Program-made: the position numbers and the translations under genes
The notes under the pieces: model-generated
What the model was told of the DNA's origin: nothing
Databases searched by the model: none
Seen by the model: only the letters and a program-made list of their open reading frames with translations
Source of the DNA: Escherichia coli
Lineage (GTDB): Bacteria > Pseudomonadota > Gammaproteobacteria > Enterobacterales > Enterobacteriaceae
Assembly: GCF_046105845.1 (NCBI RefSeq)
Contig: NZ_CP151004.1
DNA: 64,000 bases
Strand: one strand, 5' to 3'
Shown: one piece after another, positions 19,036 through 42,591 of the stretch
Position numbering within the stretch: position 1 is the stretch's first letter
Layout of the letters: every line of letters begins with the position of its first letter

Positions 19036-19078
19036 TTTGCCGGATAATATAAAAAGTTATCCGGCAAATTATTTTTTA
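19036..19078 (+). terminator. Rho-independent terminator after yggM
   Basis: 12-bp stem TTTGCCGGATAA/TTATCCGGCAAA, 9-nt loop, then TTATTTTTT; the T-tract overlaps the stop codon of the convergent TRAP large-permease gene. Confidence 0.75.
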
Positions 19079-20377
19079 CATTAGCCCTAGTAGCTGTGGA
19101 ATGAACAAGGATATTTGCGGGATGTAAGTGATCATCATCAACGCGATTAACAATGCGGCATAAAATGGCAGCAATGGTTTGATCAAATGTTGAATCTTCA
19201 CACCTGAAATAGAACAACCAACAAATAGCGCACTACCCACCGGCGGTGTTAACAGCCCAATACAAAGGTTGGCCACCATCATAATACCGAAATGTACCGG
19301 ATCCATTCCCAGCTCTTGTGCAATCGGCAAGAAGATTGGTGTGAAGATTAGTACAGCCGGTGTCATGTCCATAAAGATGCCGACAATTAATAAGACGATA
19401 TTAATCAGCAGCAATATGACCAGTGGGTTATCAGAAATCCCCATCAACGCGTCGCTGATCATATAAGGAATATCAGCATTGGTCATTGCCCAGGACATGC
19501 CCACGGAAAAACCGATCAACAGTAATACAATCGAAGTGGTAACAACCGATTCCAGAATCAGTTTGGGTAAATCGCGCCATTTTACTTCCCGGTAAATCAG
19601 CACCGAGAGGATAAATGTGTAGACAACGGCAATTGCTGACGCTTCAGTTGCGGTAAAAATGCCGCCCAGAATGCCGCCCATTACAATGAACACCAGAAGC
19701 AAACTTGGTAAGGCATCCAGAAACGCTTTACATGCCTGAGCAAAGGTTGCTCTTTCTGAAAGTGGGTAGCCACGGCGTTTAGCAATAATGCCGCAGACTA
19801 TCATTACCGCGAGACCCATTAAGATCCCTGGCAAATATCCCGCCATAAATAGCGATGCTACAGAAACGCCGCCAGCTGTCAGGGAAAACACAATTAACAC
19901 GTTTGAGGGCGGTATCAGTAATCCAGTAATACAAGATGAGACGTTTACAGCGGTAGAAAATGCCGGATCATAACCTTCTTTGGTCTGAATGGGATTCAGT
20001 GTGCCACCAACGGCAGCAGCTGCCGCAACAGCTGAACCAGAAATGGAACCAAACATCATATTCGCCAGGACGTTCACATGACCAAGCGAACCAGGAACGC
20101 GGCCAACCATTACCTGGGCGAGGTTAATCAAACGTATCGCAATACCGCCGCTGTTCATCAGCGTTCCGGCAAAGATGAAAAAGGGGATTGCTAATAGGGC
20201 AAAGTTATCCAGTCCATTAGCCAGTCGCTGCGAAACAGTGATTGCCGCGATATCCTAGGGAAACATCAACAGCATTGAAGCTACAGTGGCAATACCGATT
20301 GAGAACGAAATGGGCACACCAATAAAGACCAGCACAAAAAAACAGCCAAACAGTGTAAGCGCGATATAACTATCCAT
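19076..20377 (-). pseudogene. TRAP transporter large permease (DctM family), interrupted by an in-frame TAG at codon 41
   Basis: ATG near 20377 directly after the small-permease stop; translation reads MDSYIALTLFGCFFVLVFIGVPISFSIGIATVASMLLMFP-stop-DIAAITVSQRL..., and the track's 360-aa ORF (19076..20158) restarts at internal Met 74 in the same frame. Confidence 0.8.
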
Positions 20378-41666: not shown

Positions 41667-41692
41667 AAGGGCCGCGAAAGCGGCCCTTTTTT
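41667..41692 (+). terminator. Rho-independent terminator of tktA
   Basis: GGGCCGC-GAAA-GCGGCCC followed by TTTTTT; the T-tract overlaps the stop codon of the convergent SPFH gene. Confidence 0.75.
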
Positions 41693-42591
41693 ACTTGGTG
41701 GAGATAAACGGAACTGTGCTGCCGGGGATCATGGTATCGGGTAGCTTACCGTCCCAACGCTCTGCAGTGGTTAGGGCAACAAGTCCGGGATTATCCCGCA
41801 GAGCTTCACCGCGCAGGCGGATAGCTTCTGCTTCAGCCGCACTTTTTAAACGAATAGTTTCAGCCTCTGCCGCGCCTCTTACGCGAATAGTCTCAGCTTC
41901 TGCTTTGGCTGCCGCCAGTTTACTGTCTGCTTCAGCCTGGGCCTGAGTTACTGCTATTTGCGCCTGGATTTTCTCTGTTTCCAGATTTTGCTTACGTGTG
42001 GCAATGGCGACTTCTGCTTTCATTCGATCTTCAATCGATTTTTCATAAGCGTCAGAAAAATCAATATTTTCAATCTGGACACCATCAATCACCACCGGGC
42101 CAACAACGGCTTTACGCATTGCATTTTGCAGATCCTGAACCAGTTTTGTACGATCCTGTACCGCGCTGATGGCGGTATATTGGCCGAAAACGTTCTCCAG
42201 TTGAGTTGGCAGCTGGCGGACGATCAGACGCTCTTTTAAAGATTCAATGGTGTTGTAGGTTGTATAAACTGCGCCAGCTTCTGAAGGTTTAATGTGGAAG
42301 CTGACTGATACTGTCATTTGTGCCGGTTGCTGGTCGCGGCTGTAGGCCCTGATAAACCACAGCCTGATTACGCGTGGAAATTTTCTCCACGCTTTCCATA
42401 AAAGGGATCTTAAAACCCAGACCCGGCTCGGCAACTTTTACGATTTTTCCGTAGCGCAGCAAAATGCCGCGTTCACCTTCATTAACGGTGTAATACGAGA
42501 GAAATGGCAGCACAACCACGGCAAGCACGCCAATGACGATAGCAATAGATTTTTGTGGGCGAAATGAGGTTATTGAAACAGGTGCTTTCAT
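41691..42591 (-). pseudogene. SPFH/band-7 (stomatin/prohibitin-like) membrane protein gene split by a frameshift
   Basis: N-terminal part (TM helix, EGERGILLRYGKIV, PGLGFKIPFMESV) in ORF 42289..42627; remainder (VSVSFHIKP..., coiled-coil Ala/Glu-rich tail) in ORF 41691..42434 in another frame; RBS AGGAAG before ATG 42591. Confidence 0.75.

What the first reader, a model, noticed from the sequence alone, without database searches (positions are those of the whole stretch)
20255..20257. In-frame amber codon at position 41 of the TRAP large permease
From the ATG abutting the dctQ stop, the reading frame hits TAG after 40 codons (plus-strand CTA inside TATCCTAGGG), then continues in the same frame into the 360-aa ORF. 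The stop falls in the conserved first TM segment, so the transporter is predicted non-functional unless the codon is suppressed or a truncated permease is made from Met 74. A point nonsense lesion in an otherwise intact operon suggests recent inactivation.
Basis: seen in the sequence. Interest (0 to 1): 0.6.

Follow-up and report, generated by a model that had tools for sequence, protein, structure and literature searches.

The report
Recurrent amber stop in TRAP permease
The stop codon is real and turns the large permease gene of an accessory E. coli sugar-acid transporter into an ordinary pseudogene; the one notable point is that it sits on a DNA-methylation (Dcm) mutation hotspot, and the same lesion has arisen repeatedly in unrelated E. 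coli strains.

Summary
Codon 41 of dctM (minus strand, 20257-20255) is TAG. Relatives have TGG (Trp), and the only change is a single C>T at plus-strand 20256. The gene is the last one of an otherwise intact dctP-dctQ-dctM TRAP operon between hemW and yggM in an E. coli chromosome.

It is not a sequencing error, because the identical allele occurs in independent assemblies. NCBI annotates the same lesion as a pseudogene with an "internal stop" in complete genomes (six of the eight carriers were inspected).

Trp41 is not in a conserved transmembrane segment. It lies in a variable loop after the first, kinked helix.

There is also a new point. The mutated base is the methylated inner C of a Dcm site (CCAGG>CTAGG), the classic 5-methylcytosine deamination hotspot.
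- The TAG41 allele sits on at least 7 diverged haplotype groups.
- The two other Dcm-site nonsense changes possible in dctM (Q88*, W296*) also recur in nature.
- Matched TGG>TGA controls and three other control sites gave none; a fourth control site gave one lineage.

Verdict: an ordinary, recently inactivated accessory gene produced by a known mutational mechanism. Low interest, though a tidy natural example of the lacI amber hotspots.

The parts
20925..21911 (-). dctP, the TRAP substrate-binding protein (328 aa). Intact, with one private substitution, G60D.
   Evidence: Matches TIGR00787 at 280 bits. Covered full-length with no stops against the reference protein. G60D is shown. The best solved relatives are the hexuronate binders 4N15, 4MHF/4MIJ and 4N91 (ligands taken from PMC7660916).
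20377..20880 (-). dctQ, the TRAP small permease (167 aa). Intact. Its TAA stop overlaps the dctM ATG by one base.
   Evidence: 100% identical to the reference protein. Pfam DctQ is recorded for identical genes.
19076..20377 (-). dctM, the TRAP large permease: 433 codons, interrupted at codon 41, so a pseudogene.
   Evidence: Translation. Homology to the solved SiaQM permeases 7QHA and 7QE5.
20255..20257 (-). In-frame amber codon 41 (TAG; relatives have TGG Trp).
20255..20259 (+). Mutated Dcm site. The plus strand is now CTAGG, whereas relatives have CCAGG. The changed base, 20256, is the inner (methylated) C.
   Evidence: Direct reading against the reference allele. Hotspot rule from Coulondre et al. 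1978 as summarised in PMC12606429.
20258..20377 (-). The 40 sense codons that remain translatable from the native start (the first, kinked TM helix only).
   Evidence: Model helices 2-18 and 23-38.
19076..20158 (-). Downstream 360-aa ORF starting at Met74, which gene callers report as a separate gene. It is probably not a functional product.
   Evidence: Met74 is a conserved internal residue of the PFFxxxGxLMxxGG motif. Only a GGA lies 8-10 nt upstream, with no AGGAGG-like site (direct reading). The ORF is annotated as a permease in an NCBI E. coli record, STF52102.1.
20114..20116 (-). Codon 88 (CAG within CCAGG), the second Dcm-site codon that can become amber. Intact in this window.
   Evidence: Q88* alleles found elsewhere.
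19490..19492 (-). Codon 296 (TGG within CCTGG), the third Dcm-site codon that can become amber. Intact in this window.
   Evidence: W296* alleles found elsewhere.

Best explanation
dctM, the large permease of an accessory DctP-type TRAP transporter (probably for a hexuronate such as D-glucuronate or D-galacturonate), has been knocked out by a single C>T transition at plus-strand 20256. This converts Trp41 (TGG) to amber (TAG).

The mutated base is the inner cytosine of a Dcm site (CCAGG). In E. coli that cytosine is 5-methylated. When it deaminates it becomes thymine, and if very-short-patch (VSP) repair misses the T:G mismatch the result is exactly CCAGG>CTAGG.

Translation from the native start stops after 40 residues, which is only the first kinked helix. 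Any product restarted at Met74 would lack helices 41-56 and most of 59-76, including the near-invariant P65, F67 and G71. The transporter is therefore non-functional, while dctP and dctQ remain intact.

Shown here: the lesion, its Dcm context, its reality, its recurrence at this and the two other Dcm-nonsense positions of the gene, and its youth in this lineage.

Inferred: actual methylation of the site, loss of transport, and the substrate.
For: The lesion and its context:
- TGG>TAG is the only non-synonymous change in dctM relative to intact alleles.
- The context is CCAGG>CTAGG.

It is real and not an error:
- Identical sequence, including TAG, over 3.5-9 kb in L004, L009/L018, L010, L020 and L032, which come from different assemblies and sequencing runs.
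- Eight complete E. coli genomes carry TAG41; in the six whose annotation was fetched, the gene is marked 'pseudo, internal stop'.

It is recent:
- The TGG haplotypes L003 and L005 differ from the window by 1 other SNP in 1.8 kb.

It has arisen independently several times:
- TAG41 occurs on 7 haplotype groups. In the pairs examined they differ by 15 or more SNPs per 1.8 kb.
- Both alleles of the SNP 14 nt upstream, and both alleles of the SNP 28 nt downstream, are found next to TAG.
- L041 and L043 are identical to the TGG haplotype L023 except for the stop, yet they lie about 30 SNPs from the window.

The hotspot test:
- dctM has 15 possible nonsense transitions, 3 of them at Dcm inner cytosines: W41, Q88 and W296.
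- All three Dcm alleles exist in nature on several haplotypes. In complete genomes they occur in 8, 1 and 62 genomes respectively.
- Controls Q50*, R51* and Q131* returned only contig-end fragments. W267* returned one lineage.
- The matched TGG>TGA changes at codons 41 and 296 give the same truncated protein but do not involve the methylated C. They occur in 0 genomes.
- A rough binomial for 12 Dcm events against 1 control event gives p about 3e-4.

Loss of function:
- Further decay is seen in other carriers: IS1 truncates dctP in L039, L040 and L044; an IS lies at the 3' end of dctM in L033 and L037; one genome carries both Q88* and W296*.

The mechanism is established knowledge: Coulondre et al. 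1978 via PMC12606429, and Dcm/VSP repair in PMC3527292.
Against: - Methylation of this site and the presence of dcm in this genome could not be checked, because dcm and vsr lie outside the window.
- Across the window as a whole, transitions at Dcm inner positions are not enriched relative to other G/C positions when compared with two E. coli genomes (5 of 242 against a 2.6% background; 3 of 152 against 1.8%). The hotspot signal is therefore only visible for these nonsense alleles.
- Counts of genomes and contigs are not counts of mutational events. The haplotype grouping is approximate, and E. coli recombines.
- Only four of the twelve non-Dcm nonsense transitions were tested by contig look-up, plus two by BLAST.
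- Low-level natural readthrough of UAG cannot be excluded.
Confidence: 0.85

Rival explanations
1. Sequencing or assembly error: the genome really has TGG at codon 41.
For: It is a single-base difference. The first 61-mer search found no complete genome identical to the window at this site. The window is only about 98.8% identical to the closest complete genome.
Against: The same TAG, within sequence 100% identical over up to 9 kb, is found in several independent assemblies and runs: GCA_044249515.1, GCA_018015415.1, SRR12605517, SRR12325025 and SRR28309099. TAG41 is also present in 8 complete genomes. The lesion is a substitution, not a homopolymer indel.
Confidence: 0.02
2. A single ancient TAG41 mutation was spread among lineages by homologous recombination, with no hotspot involved.
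For: E. coli recombines. All four allele combinations (the four-gamete pattern) also occur between the neutral SNPs at operon positions 1731 and 1773, only 42 nt apart. Haplotype B (L016/L021) differs from its nearest complete-genome relative at both position 1731 and the stop, as a short conversion tract would.
Against: TAG is flanked by different alleles 14 nt upstream and 28 nt downstream. L041 and L043 equal the TGG haplotype L023 at every other site in 1.8 kb while being about 30 SNPs from the window, which would need an imported patch of less than about 80 nt. The same pattern repeats at the two other Dcm-nonsense codons but not at the control sites. VSP repair would tend to correct heteroduplex T:G at this site back to C (established knowledge).
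Confidence: 0.08
3. The gene still yields a working permease, either by amber suppression or readthrough, or as a truncated or split protein restarted at Met74.
For: The frame is open on both sides of the stop, and the rest of the operon is intact. Gene callers report the 360-aa ORF, and one NCBI record names it a permease.
Against: The window holds no suppressor tRNA, only tRNA-Phe. Met74 is an internal conserved residue, and a restart there removes near-invariant P65, F67 and G71 and two helices. No start codon lies between codons 42 and 73, and the Shine-Dalgarno site before Met74 is weak. Other carriers accumulate further lesions in the operon, as expected for a dead gene.
Confidence: 0.04
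4. The recurrence is driven by selection for loss of the transporter rather than by mutation bias.
For: The operon is absent from about 73% of complete E. coli genomes. It is hit by IS elements in several others. W296* is common, in 62 genomes.
Against: Selection for loss would accept any knock-out. Yet TGG>TGA at the same two codons, which gives the identical protein product, occurs in 0 genomes against 8 and 62 for TGG>TAG. Three of the four other nonsense sites tested were empty. Selection could still help such alleles rise in frequency once they have arisen; that was not tested.
Confidence: 0.1

Closest known systems
lacI amber hotspots at Dcm sites (Coulondre, Miller, Farabaugh & Gilbert 1978; 5-methylcytosine deamination countered by Vsr very-short-patch repair)
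   Same: A G:C>A:T transition at the second C of CCWGG creates an amber codon. The event recurs far more often than at comparable non-Dcm positions.
   Different: Here it is seen in natural isolates and metagenomes rather than in a laboratory mutant collection. At codons 41 and 296 the methylated C is on the non-coding strand (TGG>TAG), whereas the lacI sites are CAG>TAG. Dependence on dcm was not tested.
DctP-type TRAP transporters (DctPQM; solved permeases PpSiaQM 7QHA/8B01 and HiSiaQM 7QE5/8THI)
   Same: A three-gene operon of SBP, small permease and large permease. DctM matches TIGR00786 and aligns over its full length with the solved M subunits, with E-values of 2e-92 and 7e-83.
   Different: The large subunit is interrupted at codon 41, so the system is predicted to be dead. 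The substrate is probably a hexuronate, not sialic acid or C4-dicarboxylates.
Hexuronate TRAP systems: Salmonella STM3169-3171 (D-glucuronate) and the SBPs Bamb_6123 (4N15), Bpro_3107 (4MHF) and Apre_1383 (4N91)
   Same: The window's DctP has these uronate binders among its best solved relatives, with E-values from 1e-61 to 1e-66. As with STM3169, the operon stands alone without catabolic genes.
   Different: It is not the STM3169 orthologue. The stm3169 primers are absent from the syntenic Salmonella hemW-dctPQM-yggM locus, which encodes a 90% identical SBP. Ligand-binding residues and the ligand were not tested.
RefSeq/PGAP pseudogene 'TRAP transporter large permease, internal stop' in E. 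coli 2014C-3011, SMN013SH2, CAU16175, EPSSH018, PEC240 and OkiPb01679
   Same: The identical TAG at codon 41 of the orthologous gene.
   Different: It lies on a haplotype about 2% diverged from the window. In three of these genomes dctP is additionally truncated by IS1.

Membership tests
TRAP transporter large permease DctM (TIGR00786 / PF06808) | Profile score above the curated cut-off | tested here: met
TRAP transporter large permease DctM (TIGR00786 / PF06808) | Encoded together with a DctQ small permease and a DctP solute-binding protein | tested here: met
   dctP, dctQ and dctM are adjacent on the minus strand, and dctQ and dctM overlap by 1 nt.
TRAP transporter large permease DctM (TIGR00786 / PF06808) | Uninterrupted reading frame of about 420-440 codons | tested here: not met
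   TAG at codon 41. It is therefore a pseudogene of this family, not a functional member.
TRAP transporter large permease DctM (TIGR00786 / PF06808) | SBP-dependent, ion-coupled transport activity | not testable with these tools
   Needs an uptake or growth assay.
Dcm-site 5-methylcytosine deamination hotspot | The mutated base is the second C of CCWGG and the change is C>T | tested here: met
   On the plus strand, CCAGG (relatives) becomes CTAGG (window) at 20255-20259.
Dcm-site 5-methylcytosine deamination hotspot | Recurrence in excess of comparable non-Dcm sites | tested here: met
   There are 7, 3 and 2 haplotype groups for the three Dcm nonsense alleles, against 0, 0, 0 and 1 for four controls. 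The matched TGA changes occur in 0 genomes, against 8 and 62 for TAG.
Dcm-site 5-methylcytosine deamination hotspot | The site is methylated, and the excess depends on dcm | not testable with these tools
   dcm and vsr are outside the window, and no methylome data are available.
Hexuronate-binding TRAP SBP cluster | Closest characterised relatives bind D-glucuronate or D-galacturonate | tested here: met
   4N15, 4MHF/4MIJ and 4N91 are among the top 7 solved relatives. Their ligands are given in PMC7660916.
Hexuronate-binding TRAP SBP cluster | Conserved ligand-contact residues and measured binding | not tested
   Residue mapping was not done, and binding needs an experiment.
Programmed amber suppression or recoding | A suppressor tRNA (anticodon CUA) or a recoding signal | tested here: inconclusive
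   Only tRNA-Phe (GAA) is in the window. The rest of the genome is unseen. Decay of other TAG41 operons argues against recoding.

The most novel reading that the evidence does not exclude
The three Dcm sites in dctM might act as mutational 'weak points' that let E. coli lineages repeatedly shed this high-affinity hexuronate transporter when losing it is advantageous, for example in particular hosts or in Shigella-like lifestyles. In that reading, methylation-driven hotspots would bias which accessory functions are lost first. The evidence here shows mutation bias in where the knock-outs occur. It neither shows nor excludes selection on their spread.
Probability: 0.1. Interest if true: 0.5.

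Novelty: new member of a known kind. Interest (0 to 1): 0.22.

Why it matters
For this genome it only means that the accessory TRAP transporter should be annotated as a pseudogene. The 40-aa and 360-aa ORFs are not genes.

More generally, it is a clean natural counterpart of the textbook lacI amber hotspots. Within one gene, all three positions where Dcm-site deamination can make a stop codon have been hit repeatedly in wild E. coli and Shigella, while the adjacent TGG>TGA changes have not.

This is useful as a caution. Homoplasic nonsense alleles at CCWGG sites should not be read as shared ancestry, or as evidence of selection, without a mutation-bias control.

Tried and rejected
- The 61-mer search seemed to show that no complete genome carries TAG. 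That was wrong, because a neighbouring SNP (operon position 1731) masked carriers. The 41-mer design corrected it to 8 genomes.
- The JGI metagenome scan for the TAG 24-mer found nothing. The GTDB species-representative scan found only TGG alleles, in 3 contigs.
- I considered that the SBP is the Salmonella virulence factor STM3169. This was rejected because the published stm3169 primers do not match the syntenic Salmonella locus.
- I tested whether Dcm sites are generally hypermutable in this region. They show no enrichment in overall divergence.
- Look-ups with N-terminal fragments as 'proteins' return many genes cut by contig ends rather than by stop codons. These were recognised and excluded by checking the DNA.
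- L015 looked like a TAG carrier in the automated table but is TGG with a scaffold gap. L013, L017, L019 and L022 are indel-error assemblies.
- Vetting et al. 2015 (PMC4310620) is not held, so PDB ligands were taken from PMC7660916.
- The lineage of the window was not identified beyond 'Escherichia coli'. Exact-match proteins are named E. coli, and the longest contig carrying them is 4.74 Mb.

Full report
**1. The observation**

The minus strand from 20377 to 19076 translates as 40 sense codons, a stop, and then 392 further sense codons ending at the normal C-terminus. The ATG at 20377 overlaps the dctQ TAA by one base (TAATG). The first in-frame start after the stop is ATG codon 74 at 20158, which opens the 360-aa ORF.

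**2. What the region is**

- The window is an Escherichia coli chromosome segment running gsp-speC-nupG-mutY-ansB-yggM-[dctM-dctQ-dctP]-hemW...metK-speAB-tkt-cmtBA...pgk-fbaA...scpABC-argP-rpiA.
- It is colinear with complete E. coli genomes but only 98.7-98.8% identical to the closest of 5426 of them.
- Proteins identical to those of the window are named E. coli by NCBI, and the longest contig carrying them is 4.74 Mb.
- DctM aligns over its full length with the solved SiaQM permeases.
- The operon is accessory. It is found in about 1490 of 5426 complete E. coli genomes.
- It is nevertheless syntenic in Salmonella enterica, where hemW-dctPQM-yggM encodes an SBP 90% identical to this one.
- The SBP's best solved relatives are hexuronate binders: 4N15, 4MHF/4MIJ and 4N91 (ligands from PMC7660916). 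A D-glucuronate or D-galacturonate transporter is therefore the best guess.
- It is not STM3169, because that gene's published primers are absent from the syntenic Salmonella locus.

**3. The lesion**

Against an intact allele, dctM differs at four bases. Three are synonymous, and the fourth is TGG>TAG at codon 41, which is C>T at plus-strand 20256. dctQ is identical at the protein level and dctP has one substitution, G60D.

Of 65 reference genes checked across the window, only dctM and a prohibitin-family gene (an 8-bp deletion) are disrupted.

The stop is not an error. Sequence identical to the window over 3.5-9 kb, TAG included, occurs in assemblies from different projects and runs.

The closest TGG haplotypes, L003 and L005, differ by one other SNP in 1.8 kb, so the inactivation in this lineage is recent.

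**4. Position in the protein**

I aligned 80 diverse full-length homologues from a search of 1.84 billion representative proteins.
- Positions 39-41 are an indel-prone, unconserved stretch; W41 aligns with G, gap, S or D.
- P22, P65, F67, G71 and M74 are nearly invariant.
- An AlphaFold model (pLDDT 95.6) has helices at 2-18, 23-38, 41-56 and 59-76.

For a nonsense codon this makes no practical difference.

Met74 is an internal residue of the PFFxxxGxLMxxGG motif. A restart there would lack two helices and three near-invariant residues, and only a weak GGA precedes it. No homologue starts at that Met.

**5. Mechanism of origin**

The wild-type plus strand reads CCAGG at 20255-20259. The mutated base is the inner C, which Dcm methylates. 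Deamination of 5-methylcytosine gives T, producing CTAGG. This is the mechanism behind the lacI amber hotspots (Coulondre et al. 1978, summarised in PMC12606429; Dcm and VSP repair in PMC3527292).

dctM has 116 single-base routes to a stop codon. Fifteen are transitions, and three of those are at Dcm inner cytosines: W41, Q88 and W296.

**6. Test of the hotspot idea**

*TAG41.*
- Looking up the 40-residue N-terminal peptide as an exact gene product found many contigs.
- After checking the DNA, TAG41 is present on 7 haplotype groups. In the pairs examined they differ by at least 15 SNPs in 1.8 kb.
- Both alleles of the SNPs 14 nt upstream and 28 nt downstream are found next to TAG.
- Two groups have an otherwise identical or nearly identical TGG counterpart: the window against L003/L005 (1 difference), and L041/L043 against L023 (0 differences).
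- A 41-mer designed so that only TAG alleles can seed a match finds it in 8 complete genomes. In the six inspected, NCBI annotates the gene as 'pseudo, internal stop'.

*The other two Dcm-site nonsense alleles.*
- Both exist on several haplotypes. Q88* (CAG>TAG) is on 3 groups and in 1 complete genome.
- W296* (TGG>TAG) is on at least 2 groups and in 62 complete genomes.

*Controls.*
- Q50*, R51* and Q131* returned only genes cut by contig ends.
- W267* returned one lineage, and that one is TGA.
- The matched controls TGG>TGA at codons 41 and 296 give the same truncated proteins but do not involve the methylated C. They are in 0 complete genomes.
- A rough binomial for 12 Dcm events against 1 control event over the seven sites tested gives p of about 3e-4.

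*Caveats.*
- Haplotype groups only approximate independent events, because E. coli recombines.
- Only part of the control set was tested.
- Overall divergence in this window shows no excess of transitions at Dcm positions.

**7. Consequence**

The transporter is predicted to be non-functional, while DctP and DctQ can still be made. dctM is the last gene of the operon, so there is no downstream polarity.

Other carriers show further decay:
- IS1 truncates dctP in three TAG41 genomes.
- An IS lies at the 3' end of dctM in L033 and L037.
- One genome carries both Q88* and W296*.

That is what is expected of a dead operon, and it argues against suppression or a functional split protein. No suppressor tRNA is in the window, but the rest of the genome is unseen.

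**8. Comparison and verdict**

This is a pseudogene of a DctM-family permease. It meets the family's sequence and operon criteria but fails the intact-frame criterion. It was created by a known mutational mechanism, and the same allele is already flagged as a pseudogene in RefSeq genomes.

What was not obvious from the window alone is that the lesion is one of three recurrent Dcm-hotspot knock-outs of this gene across E. coli and Shigella. That makes it a neat natural example of a 1978 laboratory result, not a new kind of biology.

Interest is low (0.22). The novelty class is a new member of a known kind.

Noticed in passing
window 41691-42591 (minus strand), deletion at about 42346: A prohibitin-family gene (302 aa in reference genomes) carries an 8-bp deletion (ATTACAGG) that shifts the frame. 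It is the only other disrupted gene among the 65 checked in the window.
   Followed up: partly
window 1-64000: The window is colinear with E. coli chromosomes, but its best identity to any of 5426 complete RefSeq E. coli genomes is only 98.7-98.8% over 23-24 kb. The lineage therefore has no close complete-genome relative in that collection. Exact-match proteins sit on a 4.74 Mb NCBI contig named E. coli.
   Followed up: partly
L051-L062 and L069-L074 (contigs ending at dctM codons 49-50 and 130); L038 (ends at codon 41): Dozens of metagenome and Logan contigs end exactly at polymorphic sites of dctM, for example the CAG/CAA SNP in codon 50. Exact-protein look-ups then return 'truncated proteins' that are contig ends rather than stop codons. 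This is a trap for pseudogene counting.
   Followed up: yes
L014 and L015 (scaffold gaps at dctM codon 41): Two metagenome scaffolds from one pipeline have runs of 10 N placed exactly at the codon-41 site. This might reflect mixed TGG/TAG strains within the sample, or it might be coincidence.
   Followed up: no
L039, L040, L044 (E. coli 2014C-3011, SMN013SH2, OkiPb01679); L033/L037 (CP026831.1); one search hit H3 (strain S5): The operon is also hit by insertion sequences in several genomes. IS1 removes the 5' part of dctP in three TAG41 genomes. An IS lies at the 3' end of dctM in a TAG41 genome. IS1 sits inside the permease region in strain S5.
   Followed up: partly
NZ_CM195848.1 (E. coli MEC2025-PR), hits H122 and H178: One complete genome carries both Q88* and W296* in the same dctM, that is, two Dcm-site amber mutations in one gene.
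   Followed up: no
L028/L029 (Salmonella enterica) versus window 19076-21911: The hemW-dctPQM-yggM arrangement is conserved in some Salmonella enterica (SBP 90% identical), yet it is missing from about 73% of complete E. coli genomes. This suggests an ancestral operon that is being lost within E. coli. It is a different system from STM3169-3171.
   Followed up: partly
cluster 3 (P0303, 344 aa, Shigella flexneri VA-6, 52 contigs): The 344-aa ORF that follows a Q88* stop is recorded on 52 contigs and named Shigella flexneri. The Q88* allele may therefore be fixed in a Shigella flexneri lineage.
   Followed up: no
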